Positions 11,390 to 24,647 of a stretch of 56,801 bases of DNA are shown piece after piece. Both the position numbers and the translations under genes were made by a program. The stretch lies in assembly GCA_964594235.1 (NCBI GenBank), contig CAZQMF010000005.1:1-56801 (forward strand). Direction: 5' to 3'. Under the pieces are notes generated by a model that was not told the DNA's origin, searched no databases, and was given only the letters and a program-made list of their open reading frames with translations. Every line of letters begins with the position of its first letter. Within the stretch, counting starts at the first letter, position 1. The stretch is from an uncultured Acidimicrobiia bacterium (GTDB lineage: Bacteria > Actinomycetota > Acidimicrobiia > Spongiisociales > UBA4744).

Positions 11390-12283
11390 ATGCCGCCCGA
11401 TCCCGAAACGAGACTCGGTGCCTGGTACCTGGCATCGCGTCCTCACACGCTCCCTGCGGCGGTCGCCCCGGTCGCCGTGGCAGCGGGGTTGGCCATCAAG
11501 GACGGCGTCTTCCGATGGGGTCCCTTCCTCGCAGCTGCGATCGGGGCGCTCGCGATTCAGGTTGCCGCCAATTTCACGAACGACCTATCCGATGCGCGCA
11601 AAGGAGCCGACAACGAGGATCGCATCGGACCGCGCCGTGCGGTCGCGTCGGGGCTGTTGAGCGAACCGGCGATGACGGTCGCCACCGTCATGGCGTTCTC
11701 GGTCGCAACCGCTGCCGGCGTGTACCTCGTCACGCAGGCCGGTTGGATCATCGTCATCGTCGGAGTGGCGTCGATCTTCGCCACGCTGGGATACGTCGGA
11801 GGGCCGCGACCGTACGGGTACCGGGGGCTTGGTGAGGTGTTCGTGTTCGTGTTCTTCGGCCTGGTGGCAACGGTCGTGTCGCGCTTCGTGTACGACCGAA
11901 GCGCCCCTGCCGATGCCTGGCTACTTGCGATCCCCATGGGCTTTCTGGTCACCGCGATCCTGGTCGCGAACAACGTTCGGGACATCGACACCGATCGAGC
12001 GGCAGGCAAGCGGACGCTGGCAGTGATCCTGGGGCGTGAACGAACGCGCGTCTTCTTCGATGTGTTGGTGTGGGGCGCGTTCGTTCTGGTGGTCGTGTTC
12101 GTCGTGGGAGGGTGGACGCCACCGCTGTCCCTCTTGACGCTGCTGGCGGCCCCTTTGGCCGTCCCGATCACCAGAGCCATTCGCACGGCGACTGACGGTC
12201 CCTCCCTGATCGTCGCTCTGAAGGGGATCGCTCGGCTGGACTTGATCTTCGGCCTTCTCCTTGCGCTCGGGGTCGCTCTGTGA
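11390..12283 (+). CDS. menA: 1,4-dihydroxy-2-naphthoate polyprenyltransferase
   Basis: ASRPHTLPAA, ANFTNDLSD, YGYRGLGE, NNVRDIDTDRAAGKRTL; ATG 1 nt after the menB stop. Confidence 0.92.
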   Translation: MPPDPETRLGAWYLASRPHTLPAAVAPVAVAAGLAIKDGVFRWGPFLAAAIGALAIQVAANFTNDLSDARKGADNEDRIGPRRAVASGLLSEPAMTVATVMAFSVATAAGVYLVTQAGWIIVIVGVASIFATLGYVGGPRPYGYRGLGEVFVFVFFGLVATVVSRFVYDRSAPADAWLLAIPMGFLVTAILVANNVRDIDTDRAAGKRTLAVILGRERTRVFFDVLVWGAFVLVVVFVVGGWTPPLSLLTLLAAPLAVPITRAIRTATDGPSLIVALKGIARLDLIFGLLLALGVAL

Positions 12284-12360
12284 ACCAACCAAGGCAGTCT
12301 CTTATACTCGGGTGCGTCTTACATACAACAGGCTGATACTGCGCGCTCTCGAGGTTCGAA

Positions 12361-12380
12361 TAAGGGACTTTCGGCCCTAT
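12361..12380 (+). promoter_or_regulatory. DosR/DevR-type box upstream of the hexaheme lipoprotein
   Basis: TAAGGGACTTTCGGCCCTAT versus mycobacterial consensus TTSGGGACTWWAGTCCCSAA. Candidate -10 TACAGT at 12412-12417. Confidence 0.7.
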
Positions 12381-12443
12381 TCCAACAGCATGTCGGCAAC
12401 GATCCATGGCGTACAGTTTTGGGGTCGACAGAAAGGGTCGAGG

Positions 12444-13445
12444 ATGAGACGCTCGTTGTTGCTCTTGGCCGTGCTCGCGCTGGTCGTCGCGGCATGCACA
12501 GGCCCGGCAGGCCCGGTTGGACCCGAGGGTCCCCAGGGTGTCGCCGGTCCTGCGGGACCGCAGGGACCGGCAGGAGAGAACGCCACCTTCACCGCGACCG
12601 ACCTCACGTGCACGGAGTGCCACAACGACGGGTCGACGCTCACCGGCAAGGCCCTCGAGTGGTCGACGTCGGGACATGGAATGGGAACCACGTACCTACG
12701 CGCGACCACTGCCTCGTGCGCGGGATGCCACTCGGGCAACGGCTTCACCGACCGCATCACCGCAGGGATCTCGAATCCCGATGAGGTCGCTGATGGCCAG
12801 CACGACCCGACGAGGGAAGACTGCCGCGCCTGCCACCAGATCCACACCACGTACACCAGCGACGACTTCGCGTTGACGACGACGGACCCGGTGGTCCTGT
12901 ACGCGAGCGGCGAAACGTTCGATCTCGGAATGGGCAACCTGTGCGCCAACTGCCACCAGCCGAGGAGAACCCTCCCCGAGGCCGCTGCGGATGGCACGAT
13001 CGAGATCGACAGCACGCACTGGGGCCCGCACCATGGTCCGCAGTCGGCGGTCATGTTGGGCATCGGCGGTTCGACGGACGGTAGCCCCGCGGCCCACTAC
13101 CAGCTGATTGCAGATGGCTGTCCTGCATGCCATATGGGTGAGAACGCCAACCACTCGTTCGCTCCCGACACGGCCAACTGCCAGGGGTGCCACGAGGGCC
13201 TGGACACGTTCGACTACAACGGTGTCCAAACCGAGATCAAGGATCTCTTCGACCAGCTCGGCCAGGCCCTCCAGGCCAAAGGGCTGCTCGATGCGGACCT
13301 GACGCTGGTTCCAGGAAGCTATCCAGCAGCACAAGCAGGAGCCGCGTGGGACTACGAGATGATCAGCGACGACGGAAGCTGGGGTGTGCACAACCCGGGC
13401 TATGTCAAGGCACTGCTCACCGCAGACATCGCAGCCCTGCAGTAG
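12444..13445 (+). CDS. Hexaheme c-type cytochrome lipoprotein with collagen-like stalk
   Basis: MRRSLLLLAVLALVVAA-C lipobox, then (G-X-Y)9. Six CxxCH: CTECH, CAGCH, CRACH, CANCH, CPACH, CQGCH. C-terminal GSWGVHNPGY; 333 aa. Confidence 0.92.
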   Translation: MRRSLLLLAVLALVVAACTGPAGPVGPEGPQGVAGPAGPQGPAGENATFTATDLTCTECHNDGSTLTGKALEWSTSGHGMGTTYLRATTASCAGCHSGNGFTDRITAGISNPDEVADGQHDPTREDCRACHQIHTTYTSDDFALTTTDPVVLYASGETFDLGMGNLCANCHQPRRTLPEAAADGTIEIDSTHWGPHHGPQSAVMLGIGGSTDGSPAAHYQLIADGCPACHMGENANHSFAPDTANCQGCHEGLDTFDYNGVQTEIKDLFDQLGQALQAKGLLDADLTLVPGSYPAAQAGAAWDYEMISDDGSWGVHNPGYVKALLTADIAALQ

Positions 13446-13465
13446 AACACACGTCGACCCTTGTG

Positions 13466-13492
13466 AGAGCGGCGCCCGTCGGGCGCCGCTCT
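13466..13492 (+). terminator. Hairpin downstream of the lipoprotein cytochrome
   Basis: Perfect 12-bp stem AGAGCGGCGCCC-gtc-GGGCGCCGCTCT, 20 nt after the stop. Confidence 0.65.
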
Positions 13493-13501
13493 TGCGTTCT
13501 C

Positions 13502-13595
13502 AATCTTCAGTCTCCAGTCCTCAGTCCTCAGTCAGAACGCTGCCTGCAGCACCGCTAGACCGTGGGCGAGTGTGGACTACCGAGAACCTAGAGCT
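13502..13595. repeat. Heptamer-armed repeat E2
   Basis: AATCTTC AGTCTCC AGTCCTC AGTCCTC AGTC-AGAACGCTGCC ... GGCGAG.. GACTACC GAGAACC TAGAGCT. Confidence 0.75.
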
Positions 13596-13720
13596 GTCCT
13601 CCCGCTTCCTCCCCGGCGCGCCGAGTGTTGGGGGTCCGGCCGCCCCACCCAAGACTGACACAGTGAGATGTCCGAGGCGCAGACGAGGCCGGAGGGGGCC
13701 GTTCCCACCGATCTGGGCCG

Positions 13721-14089
13721 TCAACCCTTGACCGCAGCGACCCAAAACCGGTGAGCCGTCGCTCGGAGCGGTGCACCCGCCTTTTCGACTTCCGAGTGTG
13801 GCCGCTCGAGGTGCGTGCGATCGCGTCGAACGCCGCTACTCGCCACGGGACCGCTCTCAGGTAGGAGACGAGTGCGCCGACGTCTGAGAACTTCTCCAAG
13901 GACCTCATCGCCGGCATTCACCTCGATCCCGGCCTGCTCGTCCGCGGCAAACGTGAGATCCCATCAGGCAACCTCCGTCCGAACCACGCAACACTTCGCG
14001 GAGCCGTCCCGCTGCGTGAGGAAGACTCCACCGGGTGACCCGTTCGGTCGGCGAGTGGCCTCATGCCGGTTCATGATCAGATCGAACGC
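13721..14089 (-). pseudogene. Degraded C-terminal half of a class I SAM-dependent methyltransferase
   Basis: Collinear family motifs spread over two frames with an internal TGA: AFDLIMNRHEA, PGGVFLTQ, WDLTFAAD, FSDVGALVSYLRAVPW, then LERPH..ATAHRFWVAAVKG*. No N-terminal SAM-binding motif. Confidence 0.7.
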
Positions 14090-14183
14090 TCTCAGCCATC
14101 AGCCATCAATGACGAAGCTGCTCACCGCGAGCCGCGGTTCATGATTCGGGCGGATGACTGATGACTCAGGACTGAAGACTCAG
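14090..14183. repeat. Heptamer-armed repeat E3
   Basis: Left TCTC AGCCATC AGCCATC; right GATGACT GATGACT CAGGACT GAAGACT CAG, which overlaps the cytochrome stop codon. Confidence 0.75.
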
Positions 14184-15772
14184 TACCCCTGCTCGGGTGT
14201 GTGGCACGAGGTGCATTTCTCTATCTTCCATGCGCCCCCGATCGGAACGGGATGCTTGAAATCGAGACCGTTGATGCTGGAGTCGAGATCGGCGAGGTTC
14301 GCAGATTGTCCTTGCGCGGTGATGATGTGGCACACGTCACACTCCGACGAGACCGTTGTCCCGTCATACGTCTGGAGATCCGAGTTGTGGCATCTGAAGC
14401 AGCCGTCGTTGGTGAAGTGGCTGAGGTTGTTCTCACGAGTCCTGTAGTCGGTCTTCATCTCGGGGAAGAAGTTCTGGTTGTAGATCACCACTAGCGTCGC
14501 GGCCGCCTGGTCGACCTTCGCCTGATCCACGGTGCCCGCATACTTCTCTGAATAGAACGCCTCGAGACCCGTCCTGATGGCTTCGTCGGCCTGGTCCCTG
14601 GTCGTGTAGGGAGCGTTCAGGAGGTTGAGCCCCTCCCATCGCACGAACGGCAGGTCGGTCGAGATGGTGCCCTTGGTCATCTCGAGGTTGATAGCGGTGG
14701 CCGGCGGCTCGTAGTCGTGACTTGGCCTGTTGTGGCAGTCGATGCAGTCGAGCGTCCTCACTTCGATGCCTGCGGCGTTCAAGTCGACCTGCTGACCGTT
14801 CTTCCAGTACTCGGTCACCTTGTCGGTCGTCTTGTCGGTCAGCCGAACCCAGACCATGTCCTGTCGTTTCGGATCGTCGGTCGCGTACTCGATCGTGGTG
14901 CTGCCGAGCATATGCCAGTGGATGCCTCCCACCTGGCCGGTTCTCGGGTCACCGCCACCGATCTTGACAGCGAGACTGATCGTCCACGGAGTGTTGTTCT
15001 CGTCCGTGCGGAAGTACGTCTTCGTGACGAGCTTGTCGCCGTAGAACTGCTGGGGCCAGTGACATCCTTCGCACGTCTCCTGCGCGGGACGGAGGCTGGT
15101 CACCGGAGTGACGATAGGCCGATCGTAGGTATTGGTGATCGTCTTCCACACCTGCCGCAAACCGTCGATCTTCGACCTCACGAAGAACGATGCGCCCGGT
15201 CCGATGTGGCACTGGGCGCAGGCAACCTTGGCGTGCGGCGAATGCTGGTATGTGACCCACTCCGGTTCCATTACGGTGTGGCACGACTCGCCACAGAACG
15301 ACGACGAGTCGGTCACCTCGTACCCCTTGAACCCGCCCCATGCGACCGTACCAACGAGTACAGCGGAAAGGACGCCGAATATCGCGAGGGACCGCATGTA
15401 CCTGGGGCTGGACGGCTCAACGCGAAGATTGAACCGGATGCGCTCGCCGCGCTTGCGGGCTCTCACGACCTGGATCCGGATCGCGATCGCAAACAGAATC
15501 GCGCCCAACAGGACGATTACAGGGAACCCGATGAAGGTAACGAGTCCCCTATACGGGTTGGAGACGGGTGAACTGAGGTCGACGAACGCCAGGACCGCGA
15601 ATCCCAACAGCCCTGCGAGTACCAACGCCCCACCGACGGCAGCGAGCGGATGTCGGTACAGGCTCCGTACCTCGGTCTTCACCTCTTCGGTGTCGGTGCC
15701 GTTGCCGCCGGTGTTCTCGTCGCTACCGGTGTTCTCGGTGTTCTCGGCCGAATCCTCGATCTCGTCGCTCAC
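14180..15772 (-). CDS. imcH: ImcH-like membrane multiheme cytochrome c (NapC/NirT N-terminal domain, 7 heme motifs)
   Basis: Three N-terminal TM helices. CGESCH, SPHAKVACAQCHIGPGA, LRPAQETCEGCHWP, GIHWH, DCIDCHNRP, NFFP, GCFRCH, CDVCH, CTSCH. GTG start with GAGGAGG RBS. Confidence 0.88.
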   Translation of the reverse strand: MSDEIEDSAENTENTGSDENTGGNGTDTEEVKTEVRSLYRHPLAAVGGALVLAGLLGFAVLAFVDLSSPVSNPYRGLVTFIGFPVIVLLGAILFAIAIRIQVVRARKRGERIRFNLRVEPSSPRYMRSLAIFGVLSAVLVGTVAWGGFKGYEVTDSSSFCGESCHTVMEPEWVTYQHSPHAKVACAQCHIGPGASFFVRSKIDGLRQVWKTITNTYDRPIVTPVTSLRPAQETCEGCHWPQQFYGDKLVTKTYFRTDENNTPWTISLAVKIGGGDPRTGQVGGIHWHMLGSTTIEYATDDPKRQDMVWVRLTDKTTDKVTEYWKNGQQVDLNAAGIEVRTLDCIDCHNRPSHDYEPPATAINLEMTKGTISTDLPFVRWEGLNLLNAPYTTRDQADEAIRTGLEAFYSEKYAGTVDQAKVDQAAATLVVIYNQNFFPEMKTDYRTRENNLSHFTNDGCFRCHNSDLQTYDGTTVSSECDVCHIITAQGQSANLADLDSSINGLDFKHPVPIGGAWKIEKCTSCHTPEQGY

Positions 15773-15792
15773 GGTCCCTCCTCGAGGCACCG

Positions 15793-15859
15793 ACGGTAGC
15801 CGGTGCCCAGTCCCCTCCCGTAGGGCTGATAGACCCTTCTACGGGACTCCTGTCCCCTT
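15793..15859 (-). promoter_or_regulatory. imcH-like promoter: two adjacent DosR-type 20-mers plus -10 TACCGT
   Basis: 15840-15859 TACGGGACTCCTGTCCCCTT (perfect GGGAC-N4-GTCCC) and 15820-15839 GTAGGGCTGATAGACCCTTC. The -10 at 15798-15793 would centre the boxes near -63.5 and -43.5. Confidence 0.7.
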
Positions 15860-15916
15860 TTCCTCCACCCCTCAGCCATAACCGGATGGCCGAAGATGTC
15901 GTCCCAACCATAATCG

Positions 15917-17221
15917 TCACAGGCCCCGCACGAGTTCCTCGATGGACGGCCCCTCCACCACCTCGATGCCGTACGTCACACGGGTTCCAGGCATCTCGAG
16001 ATCGAGCAACGGCAGCAGGTTGACGGGTGTGGCGACGATCACCACATCCGGCTTGGATCGTCTGATCGTTTCTGCGAGTTCGTCCCGCTGGACCTGCCCA
16101 TAGCCCATGGCGGGAAGCAGCGCCCCGATGTGCGGGTACTTCTCGAACGTTGCAGCGATCGACCCGACGGCGAACGGTCTCGGGTCGATCAGTTCGGCCG
16201 CTCCTCCGGTCTGGGCCGCGATGACTCCCGCACCGTACGCCATGCTTCCGTGGGTGAGGGTCGGACCGTCCTCGATGACGAGCACCCGCTTCCCCACGAT
16301 GAACTGGGGATCGGCGACGGTGATCGGTGACGTCGTCTTCACGAGGATGGCACCGGGGTTTGCGAGCCGCACATTCCGAACCACCTGGTCGACGTCATCC
16401 GGTTTGGCCGTCCCGACCTTGTTCACGACGACCACGTCGGCCCGTCGAAGGTTGGCTTCACCCGGCCAGTACCGCAGTTCGTGTCCGGGACGGTGGGGAT
16501 CGACGACGCAGATGTGCAGATCCGGTCGATAGAACGGCAGGTCGTTGTTGCCTCCATCCCACAGGATGACGTCGGCCTCTTGCTCGGCGACCTTCAGGAT
16601 GGCCCCGTAGTCGACACCGGCGAAGATCACCCCACCCTGTTCGATGTAGGGCTCGTACTCCTCGCGCTCTTCGATCGTGCAGTCCGCATCGATGAAATCC
16701 TGGTACGTCGCGAACCGCTGGACGGCCTGCGCGGCGAGGTCTCCGTAGGGCATCGGATGCCTGACTGCCGCGACCCGCTTCCCGTCGCCGGCGAGGGCGT
16801 GCCATACGGCTCGACTGAGTGGCGACTTGCCGGAACCCGTCCGAACGGCTGTGACTGCAACGACAGGGAGACGCGAGTCGATCATCGTCTCTGAGCCGAG
16901 CAACTCGAACGATGCGCCGGCCGCCACCGTCCGAGCGGCCATGTGCATCACATGCTCATGGGTGACATCCGAGTACGAAAAGACCGCGGTGTCGACCGCA
17001 TATGCCGCAATCAATCGCTCCAACTCCACTTCGGACACGATCGGGATGCCGTCGGTGTACAGAGGTCCGGCGAGCGCGGCGGGGTATCTCCGATCGTCGA
17101 TGTTGGGGATCTGTGTGGCAGTGAACGCGACCACCTCTACGTCGGGATCATCGCGATACATCACATTGAAGTTGTGGAAGTCCCGCCCTGCGGCGCCCAA
17201 GATCAGTATCCGCTTGCCCAT
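15917..17221 (-). CDS. Cyclic 2,3-diphosphoglycerate synthetase-like P-loop NTPase (COG2403-like)
   Basis: ILGAAGRDFHNFN, AVRTGSGKS, VRHPMPYG, CTIEEREEYE, WDGGNND, EDGPTLTHG. Confidence 0.8.
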   Translation of the reverse strand: MGKRILILGAAGRDFHNFNVMYRDDPDVEVVAFTATQIPNIDDRRYPAALAGPLYTDGIPIVSEVELERLIAAYAVDTAVFSYSDVTHEHVMHMAARTVAAGASFELLGSETMIDSRLPVVAVTAVRTGSGKSPLSRAVWHALAGDGKRVAAVRHPMPYGDLAAQAVQRFATYQDFIDADCTIEEREEYEPYIEQGGVIFAGVDYGAILKVAEQEADVILWDGGNNDLPFYRPDLHICVVDPHRPGHELRYWPGEANLRRADVVVVNKVGTAKPDDVDQVVRNVRLANPGAILVKTTSPITVADPQFIVGKRVLVIEDGPTLTHGSMAYGAGVIAAQTGGAAELIDPRPFAVGSIAATFEKYPHIGALLPAMGYGQVQRDELAETIRRSKPDVVIVATPVNLLPLLDLEMPGTRVTYGIEVVEGPSIEELVRGL

Positions 17222-21576: not shown

Positions 21577-22201
21577 CCACGTCGAAGGCGACGTGAGACT
21601 CCAGCCTGACCACGCCGTCGATGCGACGAATCAGCGCCTCCAGGAGCCGCGCGTCGGTCGCGGTCGGCGCGGTACCGGAGATCGTCACCACCCCGTTCGC
21701 GACATCGACATCGAGCGAGTTCGCTTCCAAGAGGAGCACTCGTTTGACGATGTCTTCGCGGATCTCGTCTTCGATCACGTCGTCGGGTCGCGTGAATACG
21801 GCCACCACGTCGGCCCTGCTGATGATTCCGACCAGCGCTCCGCTCGAGTCGACCACAGGAAGCCTCTTCACGTGGTGGTGTGCCATCACACGGGCGGCTT
21901 CCGTGACAGTCGCTTCGGGAAAGATGACGACCGGTTCGCGCGTCATCACCTCACCAACCGTTTCGGCATCGACGATCGGACCGCGCTCTTCGATCATTGC
22001 ACTGAGGAGTCGCCGCTGAGGTCGATCCGCTTCCCTCTCGAGGAAGTCCGCCTCGGTGATGATTCCGACCAGCGTGCCCGATTCGTCGACGACTGGGAGT
22101 CCGCTGACACCGGCTCCGACCATCACGCGGGCAGCCTCCTTGAGGTAGGTCGATGGCGTGGTCGTGATCACATCGATGGTCATGATGTCGAGGACCCTCA
22201 C
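21566..22201 (-). CDS. CBS-domain pair plus C-terminal BON domain protein
   Basis: VSGLPVVD..GIITEAD and VKRLPVVD..GIISRAD, then DVDVANGVVTISG. GTG overlaps the USP stop (GTGA). Confidence 0.9.
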   Translation of the reverse strand: MRVLDIMTIDVITTTPSTYLKEAARVMVGAGVSGLPVVDESGTLVGIITEADFLEREADRPQRRLLSAMIEERGPIVDAETVGEVMTREPVVIFPEATVTEAARVMAHHHVKRLPVVDSSGALVGIISRADVVAVFTRPDDVIEDEIREDIVKRVLLLEANSLDVDVANGVVTISGTAPTATDARLLEALIRRIDGVVRLESHVAFDVDDG

Positions 22202-22629
22202 GTGCACGGTCCCTTCACCACGAGCACATCGCACGAGGAAAGGTGCACGACCCTGTGGCTCGTGCTACCCAACACGAGCGCTGCGAGTTCGCCCCGTCCT
22301 CTCGATCCGACGACGATGAGCTCAGCCTCGACCTTCTTGGCGTACTCGACGAGCGCATCCGCCGGATATCCGTCCAGGTCGACCTTGTGGATGTCCACCG
22401 AGGTATCGACAATCAGTGGATCGACGACACTCCATACGAGTTCCCGCTGCGACTGCACCAATGTTGAGAGATCGGCCGGCACCTGACTCAGCGCTCCGAG
22501 CAGGCTGCTCGGGATGTGCGATACGTGCACGACATGGAGATCGGTCCCTCGAGACTCGGCAAACTCCACCGCTCGTCGAACCGCGAGAAGCGAGTGCTCC
22601 GATCCGTCCGTCCCAACGACGATACTCAT
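22198..22629 (-). CDS. Universal stress protein (UspA family)
   Basis: IVVGTDGSEHS, LIVVGSRGRG, LGSTSHRVVH; start MSIVVG overlaps the response-regulator stop. Confidence 0.93.
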   Translation of the reverse strand: MSIVVGTDGSEHSLLAVRRAVEFAESRGTDLHVVHVSHIPSSLLGALSQVPADLSTLVQSQRELVWSVVDPLIVDTSVDIHKVDLDGYPADALVEYAKKVEAELIVVGSRGRGELAALVLGSTSHRVVHLSSCDVLVVKGPCT

Positions 22630-23294
22630 GACTCCTCCCACTGTTCCGGCGGATACTCCCGCTCGCGTTTGGCCGCGAGTCGTGCCGAGTAGGCCGCAGC
22701 TTCCGTCCTGCGTGTCATTCCGAGCTTGTTCAGAAGGTTCGACACATAGTTCTTGACCGTCTTCTCGGCGAGGAACAGCTCTTCTGCGATCTCCTTGTTC
22801 GTGAGGCCCTCTGAGATCAAGTCGAGGATCTTGCGCTCCTGGGGCGACAGCCTCGCCACGAGCGGATCGGTTGGTTCGTCGCCACGGATCCGACGGAAGA
22901 CATGTTCGGTCATCGTCGGGTCGAGGAGCGACTCGCCGGCGCCGACTCGGCGGATGCTGTCGATCAGCTGGCGAGCATCGACGCGCTTGAGGACGTAGCC
23001 CGACGCACCGGCCATGATCGACGCGAACAGAGCCTCTTCGTCGGCGAATGACGTCAGCATCAGCACGCGCACGTCCGGCCAGCGTGAACGGATCTCTCTG
23101 CACGCCTCGATGCCGGTCCCGTCTGGCAAACGCACATCCATGACGACCACTTCCGGCCGGTCGTACCCCACACGGCGAATGGCCGATTCGACGGTGCCCG
23201 CCTCGCCGACGACCTCGAGGCCGTCCTCTCCGCCGAGCAGCGTCACCAGACCCTTTCTCACGATCTCGTGGTCATCGACGATCAGAATCCGCAC
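22626..23294 (-). CDS. dosR: DosR/DevR-like NarL-family response regulator
   Basis: VDDHEIVRKGL, DVRLPDG, LTSF, GASGYVLK, GESLLDP. HTH EGLTNKEIA..FLAEKTVKNYVS carries the same recognition helix as M. tuberculosis DevR. Confidence 0.85.
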   Translation of the reverse strand: MRILIVDDHEIVRKGLVTLLGGEDGLEVVGEAGTVESAIRRVGYDRPEVVVMDVRLPDGTGIEACREIRSRWPDVRVLMLTSFADEEALFASIMAGASGYVLKRVDARQLIDSIRRVGAGESLLDPTMTEHVFRRIRGDEPTDPLVARLSPQERKILDLISEGLTNKEIAEELFLAEKTVKNYVSNLLNKLGMTRRTEAAAYSARLAAKREREYPPEQWEES

Positions 23295-23330
23295 ATGTCC
23301 TCCTTACCTTTTCAGGCTACCGGGTCGGGC

Positions 23331-23491
23331 GGTCTTGGGTTCTCGGTCTTGGGTTCTCGGTAAGAGGGATCCCTTCGCTCGCCCTTCTGAGTTCATGGTT
23401 CTCGGTCTTCGATGAGACCGTCGCTGTCCCGTGGACTCGTGGTCTCCGGGATCGCGCTCCTACCCACAACCGACAACCGAGAACCCAAGAC
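23331..23491. repeat. Heptamer-armed repeat E4, followed by GC hairpin 23493-23511
   Basis: (GGTCTTG GGTTCTC)x2 GGT ... ACCCACA ACCGACA ACCGAGA ACCCAAG AC; the arms share a 16-nt perfect complement. Confidence 0.85.
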
Positions 23492-23531: not shown

Positions 23532-24647
23532 ATGACGCGGCCCATGATCCCCGCCTCGCGGCTCTCCGACCTGATCGGTGCGGCAGCACGTGTCACCGGT
23601 CAGACCGAACTCACCGCAGTCCTGGAGACGGTGGTGGCAACTGCCATGGACCTGACGGGAGCACCGTACGGCGCCCTCGGCGTCGTCAGCGAGAACGGCC
23701 AGCTCATCCAGTTCGTCCATCAGGGCATGCCCGAGAAGATCGCTGAGCTGATCGGTGCACCTCCGAAGGGTCGGGGTCTGCTCGGTGCGGTTACATGGCA
23801 GCCAAACCCGATCCGGCTCGAGAATGCCCAATCCCACCCTCGTGCCAGCGGCTTTCCCAAGCATCATCCGCAGCTCGACGGCTTTCTCGGTGTCTCGATC
23901 CGCATCGGCGGCGACGTATTCGGAAACCTGTATCTCGGAGCGTCGCAAGGAGGCTTCACAGAACAGGATGAGACGCTGATCCAGGCCCTCGCGCTCATCG
24001 CAGGGTCGGCGATCTCGACTCTCAGGCTGCAGGCGCGGCTTCGGAGGGCCGCCGTCCTGGAGGACCGTCAGCGCATCGCTCGGGACCTCCACGACTCCAT
24101 CATCCAGGACCTCTTCGCCGTCGGTCTGTCCCTCCAGGCTCTCACATCCCGCCTCTCCGACCCCGAGATGCGCACGAGCCTGGAGGAGGCCGCACTGCAT
24201 CTCGACGACTCGATCACCGCGCTGCGACGGTTCATCTTCGATCTTCGTCCGGCCACCCTGGGCACGCGCAATCTCAAGGACGAGCTGTCGGAGCTGCTCG
24301 GACGCCTGGCCGTTCCCTACGAAGCAAGCATCGGCATCGGCGTGACCGGTCCAGTCGACGACCTCGTTCCGGAACTGGTCGACAACGTTCTCCAGATCAC
24401 GAGGGAAGCGGTGAGCAACGCGTTGCGCCACTCGGGAGCGGACGTGGTGAGTATCTCCGTCAGTCGAGGCATCGATCGGCTCGTATTGACGGTCGTCGAC
24501 AAGGGCAAGGGCTTCGACATCGAATCGATCGCCCGCGGCATGGGTCTCGACAACATCCGGAGCCGCGCCGAGACGGCAGGGGGCGAGGCCGACGTGGAGA
24601 GCAAGGTTGGTGAGGGGACCACCGTTCGGGTGGTGCTTCCTCTCTAG
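23532..24647 (+). CDS. DosS/DosT-like sensor kinase: single heme-type GAF + HisKA_3 + HATPase
   Basis: YGALGV, GFPKHHP, FGNLYL (DosS GAF-A motifs); IARDLHDSIIQ H-box; EAVSNALRH, VVDKGKGF, GMGLDNI. Confidence 0.88.
   Translation: MTRPMIPASRLSDLIGAAARVTGQTELTAVLETVVATAMDLTGAPYGALGVVSENGQLIQFVHQGMPEKIAELIGAPPKGRGLLGAVTWQPNPIRLENAQSHPRASGFPKHHPQLDGFLGVSIRIGGDVFGNLYLGASQGGFTEQDETLIQALALIAGSAISTLRLQARLRRAAVLEDRQRIARDLHDSIIQDLFAVGLSLQALTSRLSDPEMRTSLEEAALHLDDSITALRRFIFDLRPATLGTRNLKDELSELLGRLAVPYEASIGIGVTGPVDDLVPELVDNVLQITREAVSNALRHSGADVVSISVSRGIDRLVLTVVDKGKGFDIESIARGMGLDNIRSRAETAGGEADVESKVGEGTTVRVVLPL

What the first reader, a model, noticed from the sequence alone, without database searches (positions are those of the whole stretch)
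12361..12380. Strong DosR-type box upstream of the hexaheme lipoprotein
TAAGGGACTTTCGGCCCTAT sits in an AT-richer intergenic stretch, 63 nt before the ATG. By eye, this and the imcH-like promoter are the only intergenic regions in the window with full-match boxes. This implies the two oppositely oriented cytochrome genes are co-regulated even though they cannot share a transcript.
Basis: partly seen in the sequence, partly recalled or inferred. Interest (0 to 1): 0.65.

Follow-up and report, generated by a model that had tools for sequence, protein, structure and literature searches.

The report
DosR-type operator before six-haem cytochrome gene
A 20-base palindrome in front of a six-haem cytochrome gene of an uncultured Acidimicrobiia bacterium is very probably a binding site for the DosR/DevR oxygen-responsive regulator encoded 10 kb away, so these bacteria likely switch on a small set of respiratory cytochromes when oxygen runs out.

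Summary
The box TAAGGGACTTTCGGCCCTAT is at 12361-12380, 63 nt before the ATG of a six-haem lipoprotein gene. It is not chance. It is invariant in all five genomes of the genus while the 20 nt just upstream vary. A cognate box (AGGGNC-N4-GNCCCT) lies upstream of orthologues in other Acidimicrobiia genera and families.

A matrix built from sites in other genomes ranks this box first in the whole 1.94-Mb genome (24.4 bits). Only five sites reach 18 bits and all are non-coding. They include the promoters of the convergent ImcH-like cytochrome gene and of a Rieske/cytochrome b operon.

The motif has the GGG-N8-CCC layout of mycobacterial DevR boxes (14/20 to that consensus) and of Streptomyces OsdR boxes (13/16). 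The window encodes a DevR orthologue, 56% identical, with an identical recognition helix. Beside it are a kinase with a DosT/DevS-type haem-GAF domain and a universal stress protein.

Differences from mycobacteria: one recognisable box at this promoter, no box at the regulator's own genes, and cytochromes as targets. I rate it a new member of a known kind. Binding and induction remain untested.

The parts
12361..12380 (.). DevR/DosR/OsdR-type operator (Dev box), TAAGGGACTTTCGGCCCTAT. Half-sites are AGGGAC and AGGGCC, with a GGG-N8-CCC core.
   Evidence: It is invariant in the genus, is the top matrix hit of the genome (24.4 bits), and cognate boxes occur in distant orthologue promoters.
12412..12417 (+). 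Candidate -10 hexamer TACAGT, 31 nt after the box. Inferred; it would put the box centre near -53.5.
   Evidence: Invariant in 5 genus members. The Rieske promoter has the same 31-nt spacing to TATAGT. No transcription start data.
12430..12443 (+). Purine-rich leader and ribosome-binding region (AGAAAGGGTCGAGG)
   Evidence: Invariant in the genus alignment.
12444..13445 (+). Six-haem lipoprotein cytochrome gene with a collagen-like Gly-X-Y stalk; the regulated gene
   Evidence: Pfam MtrC/MtrF II-IV, cytochrome c7 and Collagen; six invariant CXXCH motifs.
13466..13492 (+). Perfect 13-bp hairpin after the stop codon; a likely terminator, which would make the gene monocistronic
   Evidence: Inverted repeat I3; sequence.
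15820..15839 (-). Proximal (primary) Dev-type box of the ImcH-like promoter, GAAGGGTCTATCAGCCCTAC on the gene strand
   Evidence: 20.5 bits; conserved in 4 genus members, with cognate boxes in other genera.
15840..15859 (-). Distal (secondary) box, AAGGGGACAGGAGTCCCGTA on the gene strand. Centres of the two boxes are 20 bp apart.
   Evidence: Weak by matrix (0.4 bits) but has perfect GGGAC/GTCCC half-sites.
15793..15798 (-). Candidate -10 hexamer TACCGT, 21 nt after the proximal box. This would place the boxes at about -43.5 and -63.5 (inferred).
   Evidence: A TAnnnT hexamer sits 21-22 nt after the box in every ImcH-like promoter examined.
14180..15772 (-). ImcH/NapC-NirT-like membrane multihaem cytochrome gene (6 CXXCH plus 1 CX3CH). 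The probable start is GTG 15772, not the longest-ORF start at 15790.
22626..23294 (-). DevR/DosR orthologue (NarL-family response regulator); the proposed binder of the box
   Evidence: Best solved relative is M. tuberculosis DevR, 3c3w, E 6e-67. It is 56% identical, and FLAEKTVKNYVS is identical. It is one of only four GerE-domain proteins in the genome.
23532..24647 (+). Sensor kinase, GAF-HisKA_3-HATPase. Its GAF domain is closest to the haem-binding GAF-A of DosT and DevS.
   Evidence: 2vzw, E 5e-37; the HHP motif is kept.
22198..22620 (-). Universal stress protein gene directly downstream of the regulator gene
   Evidence: Pfam Usp, 1e-29.

Best explanation
The box is a DNA operator of the DevR/DosR/OsdR type.

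Proposed mechanism: a dimer of the response regulator encoded at 22626-23294 binds the two half-sites AGGGAC and AGGGCC. It is activated by phosphorylation from the divergently encoded haem-GAF kinase when oxygen falls, or when NO, CO or redox state changes. Bound just upstream of the promoter, with its centre about -53.5 from the inferred start, it activates transcription of the monocistronic six-haem lipoprotein gene.

The same regulator acts at tandem boxes of the convergent ImcH-like cytochrome gene and at a box before a Rieske/cytochrome b operon. Together these form a small respiratory regulon.

Shown here: the sequence, its conservation, the genome-wide specificity of the motif, and the presence and similarity of the regulator and kinase.

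Inferred: binding, the direction of control, the signal, and promoter positions.
For: 1. Selection on the site. A 22-nt block, 12359-12380, is invariant in five genomes whose cytochrome proteins are only 75-89% identical. The adjacent 20 nt upstream vary freely.

2. Cognate boxes sit upstream of orthologues that are 44-57% identical, in other genera and families. Among 80 species-representative loci, 14 score at least 16 bits. These are all 9 Actinomycetota-labelled loci plus 5 high-GC loci with odd labels. None of the 66 others reaches 16 bits.

3. A matrix built without this genome's sites finds 5 sites of at least 18 bits in 1.94 Mb. All are non-coding, and a reversed-sequence control gives 0. 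This box ranks first.

4. The motif layout equals that of DevR and OsdR boxes. The essential G5 and C7 of each half-site (PMC3177182) are present. The match is 14/20 to TTSGGGACTWWAGTCCCSAA (PMC2275270) and 13/16 to AGGGCCGATCGGCCCT (PMC5069765).

5. The regulator is 56% identical to DevR and far closer to it than to any other solved regulator (228.7 bits to DevR against 150.6 to VraR, the next solved regulator). Its recognition helix is identical, including the DNA-contacting Lys179, Lys182 and Asn183 (PMC4082495).

6. The kinase GAF domain matches the DosT/DevS haem domain. A universal stress protein gene and a CBS-domain protein gene follow the regulator gene.

7. Every genome with the hexahaem gene has the regulator (14/14), and 26 of 27 with the ImcH-like gene do.

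8. A TAnnnT hexamer lies at a fixed 21-22 or 31 nt after the box. The ImcH tandem at about -43.5/-63.5 mirrors M. tuberculosis tgs1 at -42.5/-63.5 (PMC3177182).

9. No Crp/Fnr-type regulator was detected in the genome.
Against: - No experiment supports the reading: there are no binding data, no transcription start and no expression data.
- Only one recognisable box is present at this promoter; adjacent 20-mers score from -38 to -19 bits. In M. tuberculosis at least two tandem boxes are the rule (PMC3177182).
- No box lies within 1.5 kb of the regulator gene in any of 12 genomes. The autoregulation that links motif to regulator in mycobacteria and Streptomyces is therefore absent.
- No universal stress protein gene appears among the top sites.
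- The regulator is much more widespread than the cytochromes (about 50 of 61 genomes). Co-occurrence is permissive only, and it is phylogenetically non-independent.
- One top site (contig C3:2158) lies between two convergent genes, an odd place for an activator site.
- The genome is 88% complete, so another regulator could be missing from it.
Confidence: 0.72

Rival explanations
1. The box is a real operator but is bound by a different protein: another NarL-family regulator (contig C10 or C77), or a regulator missing from this 88%-complete genome. The DevR orthologue would then control other genes.
For: There is no box at the DevR orthologue's own locus in 12 genomes. Two other NarL-type regulators exist in the genome. 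The regulator is far more widespread than the boxed genes.
Against: Only the window's regulator carries the DevR recognition helix. The C10 protein has Asn where DevR has Lys179, and C77 differs throughout. The motif equals experimentally proven DevR and OsdR sites (PMC3177182, PMC5069765). The regulator sits in the same menaquinone-cytochrome island in G000, G003 and G004.
Confidence: 0.15
2. The DevR orthologue binds the box but represses rather than activates, or responds to a signal other than oxygen limitation, such as NO, CO or quinone redox state.
For: Promoter positions are only inferred. DosS and DosT haem sensors respond to O2, NO and CO (PMC4082495). The kinase here has one GAF domain, not two.
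Against: The box lies upstream of, not over, the inferred -10 hexamer and start. Its fixed spacing of about -43.5 or -53.5 is typical of activators and matches the DevR activator geometry (PMC3177182).
Confidence: 0.08
3. The palindrome acts as RNA. It could be a hairpin in a transcript, or an anti-Shine-Dalgarno partner of the AAGGG ribosome-binding region in read-through transcripts from menA.
For: Some orthologous boxes could form a 6-bp stem with a GAAA loop. The minimum-energy fold of 12345-12443 pairs the right half of the box with the ribosome-binding region.
Against: - There is no compensatory change at any pair. The only variable pair (5/12) is mismatched in 9 of 23 distinct sites, and pair 3/14 shows A-C mismatches.
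- The central four bases are inverted between genera (TTTC against GAAA), which does not matter for a dimer site.
- The fold z-score is only -1.64.
- No Rfam family matches.
- No T-run follows the palindrome.
Confidence: 0.03
4. The box is a chance palindrome without function.
For: The loose pattern GGGNCNNNNGNCCC is not over-represented in the window.
Against: The box is perfectly conserved within the genus beside variable flanks. Cognate boxes occur across families, and the motif is specific genome-wide.
Confidence: 0.02

Closest known systems
Dev boxes of the Mycobacterium tuberculosis DevR (DosR) regulon, e.g. tgs1-Rv3131, hspX, narK2 (PMC3177182, PMC2275270)
   Same: It is an 18-20 bp imperfect palindrome with a GGG-N8-CCC core, and the essential G5 and C7 are present in both half-sites. 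The cognate NarL-family regulator has an identical recognition helix. A haem-GAF kinase and a universal stress protein gene lie beside the regulator gene. The inferred upstream activator position is similar, and the neighbouring ImcH-like promoter has tandem boxes 20 bp apart, compared with -42.5/-63.5 at tgs1.
   Different: The fit to the consensus is 14/20. The flanks are TA/TA-like (tAGGG...CCCTa) rather than TTS...SAA. Only one box is recognisable at this promoter. No box is found at the regulator's own operon, and no universal stress protein gene appears among the top sites. The targets are multihaem cytochromes and a Rieske/cytochrome b complex. The kinase has one GAF domain instead of two.
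OsdR (SCO0204) binding sites of Streptomyces coelicolor, consensus AGGGCCGATCGGCCCT (PMC5069765)
   Same: It is a 16-nt palindrome of the form AGGGNC-N4-GNCCCT, and the box matches 13/16. Its reverse complement, AGGGCCGAAAGTCCCT, differs by one base from the listed SCO2347 site AGGGCCGAAAGTCCCG. This shows that the DevR-type motif is kept across distant Actinobacteria.
   Different: The OsdR motif was derived from its own upstream regions (autoregulation), which is absent here. The OsdR regulon covers stress and development genes. The centre of the motif here is A/T-rich rather than CGATCG.
NreC sites of Staphylococcus (GC-rich palindrome TAGGG-N4-CCCTA; recalled from general knowledge, not checked here)
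   Same: NreC is an oxygen-responsive NarL-family regulator that uses TAGGG/CCCTA half-sites to switch on anaerobic respiration genes.
   Different: Only four bases separate the GGG and CCC triplets there, against eight here. So this box is not of the NreC type.

Membership tests
DevR/DosR/OsdR-type operator (Dev box) | An 18-20 bp imperfect palindrome with GGG and CCC triplets 8 bp apart. G5 and C7 of each half-site in the 18-bp numbering are essential (PMC3177182). | tested here: met
   In AAGGGACTTTCGGCCCTA, G5, C7, G12 and C14 are all present. GGG and CCC are invariant in 23 distinct orthologous sites.
DevR/DosR/OsdR-type operator (Dev box) | Similarity to the published consensus sequences | tested here: met
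   14/20 to TTSGGGACTWWAGTCCCSAA and 13/16 to AGGGCCGATCGGCCCT (PMC2275270, PMC5069765). This is not a full match, but it is within the range of accepted sites listed in those papers.
DevR/DosR/OsdR-type operator (Dev box) | A cognate DevR-type regulator with DNA-contacting Lys179, Lys182 and Asn183 is encoded in the genome | tested here: met
   The protein at window 22626-23294 is 56% identical to DevR, and FLAEKTVKNYVS is identical (PMC4082495).
DevR/DosR/OsdR-type operator (Dev box) | A partner sensor kinase of DevS/DosT type (haem-binding GAF, HisKA_3, HATPase) | tested here: met
   The GAF domain's best hit is the DosT haem domain, 2vzw, at 5e-37. There is one GAF domain only. Haem binding itself was not tested.
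DevR/DosR/OsdR-type operator (Dev box) | Tandem arrangement of at least two boxes in helical phase at the promoter (PMC3177182) | tested here: inconclusive
   At the hexahaem promoter the adjacent 20-mers score from -38 to -19 bits, so no second box is recognisable. Secondary boxes in M. tuberculosis are poorly conserved, so one cannot be excluded. The feature is met at the ImcH-like promoter (15820-15859).
DevR/DosR/OsdR-type operator (Dev box) | Box at the regulator's own operon, and universal stress protein genes in the regulon (a hallmark of the regulon, not of a single box) | tested here: not met
   The best score in the regulator-kinase intergenic region is -7.3 bits. There is no site within 1.5 kb of the regulator gene in 12 genomes.
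DevR/DosR/OsdR-type operator (Dev box) | Physical binding by the phosphorylated regulator, and hypoxia-dependent induction | not testable with these tools
CRP/FNR-type site | TGTGA-N6-TCACA or TTGAT-N4-ATCAA half-sites, and a Crp/Fnr-family regulator in the genome | tested here: not met
   The half-sites are GGGAC, not GTGAC. No HTH_Crp_2 match exceeds the cut-off in the genome. Chloroflexota homologues of the cytochrome gene do carry TGTGAC-N4-GTCACA boxes.
Structured RNA element or intrinsic terminator | A stem kept by compensatory changes; a T-run after the stem; a match to a known RNA family | tested here: not met
   No compensatory change is seen, and 9 of 23 sites are mismatched at pair 5/12. 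No T-run follows. No Rfam match. Fold z-score is -1.64.

The most novel reading that the evidence does not exclude
In Acidimicrobiia the haem-sensing DosS/T-DosR system may have been rewired. Instead of an autoregulated dormancy and stress regulon, it would be a non-autoregulated switch for a compact respiratory regulon. That regulon comprises an ImcH-like menaquinol-oxidising cytochrome, a Rieske/cytochrome b complex and a collagen-stalked six-haem surface cytochrome. If so, it would be the first described transcriptional control of an extracellular-type electron-transfer chain in Actinomycetota. The homologous cytochrome gene in Chloroflexota would be under a CRP/FNR-type box instead.
Probability: 0.4. 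Interest if true: 0.65.

Novelty: new member of a known kind. Interest (0 to 1): 0.5.

Why it matters
DosR/DevR is known mainly as the dormancy switch of mycobacteria, and as OsdR in Streptomyces. Here the same type of operator, regulator and haem kinase appears in uncultured Acidimicrobiia. It is conserved across an order and sits in front of multihaem cytochromes and a Rieske/cytochrome b complex rather than stress genes.

If confirmed, three things follow:
- It gives a concrete, testable hypothesis for when these abundant sediment and soil bacteria use their cytochrome chain, namely under oxygen limitation.
- It extends the known target range of the DosR family to an extracellular-type electron-transfer module.
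- It provides a short sequence signature (tAGGGNC-N4-GNCCCTa) for predicting such regulons in metagenomes.

I found no paper in the searchable library that links DosR to multihaem cytochromes.

Tried and rejected
- Loose pattern GGGNCNNNNGNCCC: not enriched in the window (2 found, about 3 expected). Of 47 copies in the genome, many are GC-rich coding or terminator palindromes. I replaced it with a matrix.
- A 16-mer consensus with one mismatch allowed gave 79 genome hits, mostly coding, including a tRNA arm and sites inside proS and a peroxiredoxin gene. These were discarded.
- The sigma-70 consensus scan found no promoter in 12200-16000. The -10 candidates were instead taken from conservation and fixed spacing.
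- Rfam search of 12200-16000: nothing.
- RNA fold of the leader: not significant.
- Search for an autoregulatory box at the regulator locus: none in 12 genomes.
- Search for a second box beside this one: none.
- Search for a Crp/Fnr regulator: none above cut-off.
- Hits of the simple consensus upstream of Chloroflexota homologues turned out to lie in the Gly-Pro repeat coding region. They vanished with the matrix.
- My own gene caller is crude. It takes the longest ORFs and missed menA and proS, so coding versus non-coding calls for top sites were checked by eye.

Full report
**1. The observation**

The 20-mer TAAGGGACTTTCGGCCCTAT is at window 12361-12380, and 63 nt separate it from ATG 12444. 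It lies in a 160-nt intergenic stretch with 53% G+C, against 63.6% for the window.

The upstream gene is a UbiA-family prenyltransferase (menA-like). The downstream gene encodes a 333-aa protein with a signal peptide, a lipobox cysteine, a Gly-X-Y collagen-like segment and six CXXCH motifs. A perfect 13-bp hairpin follows the stop codon (13466-13492), so the gene is probably monocistronic.

The wider context is a menaquinone-synthesis block (menE, menB, menA, menD-like, menF-like). Inserted in it are two convergent cytochrome genes: the six-haem gene and a NapC/NirT/ImcH-like gene at 14180-15772 on the minus strand.

**2. Chance or selection**

The exact box is unique in the window even with three mismatches allowed. 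A loose palindrome pattern is not enriched, so rarity alone proves little. The decisive evidence is comparative.

- The genome is a 1.94-Mb, 88%-complete Acidimicrobiia metagenome-assembled genome.
- In the four other genomes of the genus, the cytochrome proteins are 75-89% identical. A 22-nt block containing the box is invariant there, while the 20 nt just upstream are almost random.
- Orthologues that are 44-57% identical, in other genera and families of the order, carry a cognate box about 75-100 nt before the start. An example is AAAGGGTCGAAAGACCCTAC.
- Among 80 species-representative loci encoding this cytochrome family, 14 have a box of at least 16 bits within 450 nt upstream. These are all nine loci labelled Actinomycetota or Acidimicrobiia plus five high-GC loci with generic or doubtful labels. 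None of the 66 others, mostly Anaerolineales, has one.

**3. Genome-wide specificity**

I built a symmetrised matrix from 17 sites of other genomes and scanned the whole genome. Five sites reach 18 bits, against none in a reversed-sequence control. All five are non-coding:

| Site | Score (bits) | Location |
|---|---|---|
| C5:12361 (this box) | 24.4 | Before the six-haem gene |
| C34:16855 | 22.6 | Before a gene for an HTH_17-PocR regulator |
| C90:4786 | 22.6 | Before a Rieske/cytochrome b operon |
| C5:15820 | 20.5 | ImcH-like promoter |
| C3:2158 | 20.1 | Just after the stop codon of a hybrid kinase gene, between two convergent genes |

The C34 downstream gene was identified. The Rieske site has the same GGGACTTTCGGCCCTA core as this box and is conserved in two or three genus members. 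In the window itself the next best score after 12361 and 15820 is 9.3 bits.

**4. The partner promoter**

The ImcH-like gene has two abutting boxes, 15820-15839 (strong) and 15840-15859. A cognate box precedes the ImcH-like orthologue in about 20 of 23 genomes. One example is GATAGGGACTAACGTCCCTAGGG in another genus, which is very close to the mycobacterial core.

**5. What kind of box**

The motif is AGGGNC-N4-GNCCCT, usually flanked as tAGGG...CCCTa. Across 23 distinct sites the GGG and CCC triplets and the C6/G11 positions are nearly invariant. This is the layout of two experimentally established motifs:
- M. tuberculosis Dev boxes, consensus TTSGGGACTWWAGTCCCSAA (PMC2275270), with G5 and C7 of each half-site essential (PMC3177182).
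- Streptomyces coelicolor OsdR sites, consensus AGGGCCGATCGGCCCT, confirmed by gel shift (PMC5069765).

The box matches 14/20 and 13/16 respectively. It is a good member of the family rather than a full match.

**6. The regulator**

Only four GerE-type proteins exist in the genome. One is in the window, at 22626-23294.
- Its best solved relative by far is M. tuberculosis DevR (3c3w, E 6e-67, 56% identity). The next hit, VraR, scores 150 bits against 229 for DevR.
- Its recognition helix FLAEKTVKNYVS is identical to DevR's. That helix contains Lys179, Lys182 and Asn183, the residues that contact the bases (PMC4082495).
- The divergent gene at 23532-24647 encodes a GAF-HisKA_3-HATPase kinase. 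Its GAF domain is closest to the haem-binding GAF-A of DosT (2vzw, 5e-37) and DevS, and it keeps the HHP motif.
- A universal stress protein gene and a CBS-BON gene follow the regulator gene.
- The regulator is 65-99% identical across the order. It is present in every genome that has the hexahaem gene (14/14) and in 26 of 27 with the ImcH-like gene; the exception is 52% complete.
- No Crp/Fnr-type regulator was detected.

**7. Promoter geometry (inferred)**

- A TAnnnT hexamer lies 21-22 nt after the 20-mer in all ImcH-like promoters examined.
- An nAnnnT hexamer (GAGAAT, GATAAT and similar) lies 21 nt after it in most distant hexahaem promoters.
- In this genus the hexahaem and Rieske promoters have TACAGT and TATAGT at 31 nt.

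This puts box centres near -43.5 or, one helical turn further, -53.5. The ImcH tandem would sit near -43.5 and -63.5, compared with -42.5 and -63.5 at M. tuberculosis tgs1 (PMC3177182).

**8. Rivals**

- RNA hairpin: not supported. No pair shows a compensatory change. The one variable pair is mismatched in 9 of 23 sites. The centre is inverted between genera. The fold is not significant, and Rfam finds nothing.
- A different binding protein: cannot be excluded, mainly because the motif is absent from the regulator's own locus in 12 genomes. The usual autoregulation link between motif and regulator is therefore missing.
- Repression, or a signal other than oxygen: remains possible.

**9. Differences from the known systems**

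- Only one recognisable box at this promoter.
- No autoregulatory box.
- No stress genes among the top sites.
- A small regulon of about five sites.
- Cytochrome and Rieske/cytochrome b targets.
- A single-GAF kinase.

**10. Verdict**

It is a new member of a known kind of operator. The biological implication is moderately interesting: a haem-sensing DosR-type switch for a multihaem respiratory module in Acidimicrobiia. Searches of the paper library found nothing that links DosR to multihaem cytochromes.

Earlier notes of this scan on the neighbouring ImcH promoter and on the island agree with this reading. I treated them as leads only. The tests reported here were run independently.

Noticed in passing
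window 13496-13537 and 14145-14186: Two 42-nt inverted arms made of 7-base repeats (CAGTCCT... / ...AGGACTG) flank 607 nt between the two convergent cytochrome genes. They resemble the heptamer-armed hairpin repeat family noted earlier in this genome. Same-genus assemblies tend to break here.
   Followed up: partly
window 23330-23491: The intergenic region between the DevR-like regulator gene and the kinase gene has no Dev box. It holds a tandem 14-mer (CGGTCTTGGGTTCT x2) and a perfect 16-nt inverted repeat (GTCTTGGGTTCTCGGT / ACCGAGAACCCAAGAC) 114 nt apart. Function unknown.
   Followed up: partly
G000 contig C90:4786-4805 (also L153, L151): A box with the same core (ATTGGGACTTTCGGCCCTAT) lies 31 nt before TATAGT and about 65 nt before a Tat-signal Rieske protein gene. 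That gene is followed by a split cytochrome b (b6 plus subunit IV-like). The site is conserved in same-genus genomes.
   Followed up: partly
G000 contig C34:16855-16874 and contig C3:2158-2177: Two further high-scoring boxes. One precedes a gene for an HTH_17-PocR sensory regulator, which could indicate a regulatory cascade. The other overlaps the stop codon of a hybrid histidine kinase gene and lies between convergent genes, so it has no obvious promoter.
   Followed up: no
loci L038, L052, L066, L069, L096, L097, L099, L108, L109, L112 (Chloroflexota homologues): Homologues of the six-haem gene in Anaerolineales lack the DosR-type box. In 13 of 66 loci they carry TGTGAC-N4-GTCACA (CRP/FNR-type) palindromes upstream, about 7-fold enriched over the rest of the loci. 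The same gene family therefore seems to be under a different redox regulator in another phylum.
   Followed up: partly
window 15772-15790: The longest ORF of the ImcH-like gene starts at GTG 15790. The conserved GAGGAGGG ribosome-binding site and the conserved N-terminus (MSDE...) point to GTG 15772 as the real start.
   Followed up: partly
window 12301-12335 and 12386-12399: Small conserved islands (CTTATG, ACATA, CTGAT) lie upstream of the box, and a conserved TCCAACAGCnTGTCGGCAAG block lies just downstream of it. A GCATGTC word sits downstream of the box in this genus but about 33 nt upstream of it in distant orthologues. These may be the -35 region or another factor's site.
   Followed up: no
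loci L035-L114: The collagen-stalked six-haem lipoprotein family is far more common in Anaerolineales (Chloroflexota) than in Acidimicrobiia, at 50-59% identity. This suggests transfer between phyla, with the regulatory region replaced afterwards.
   Followed up: no
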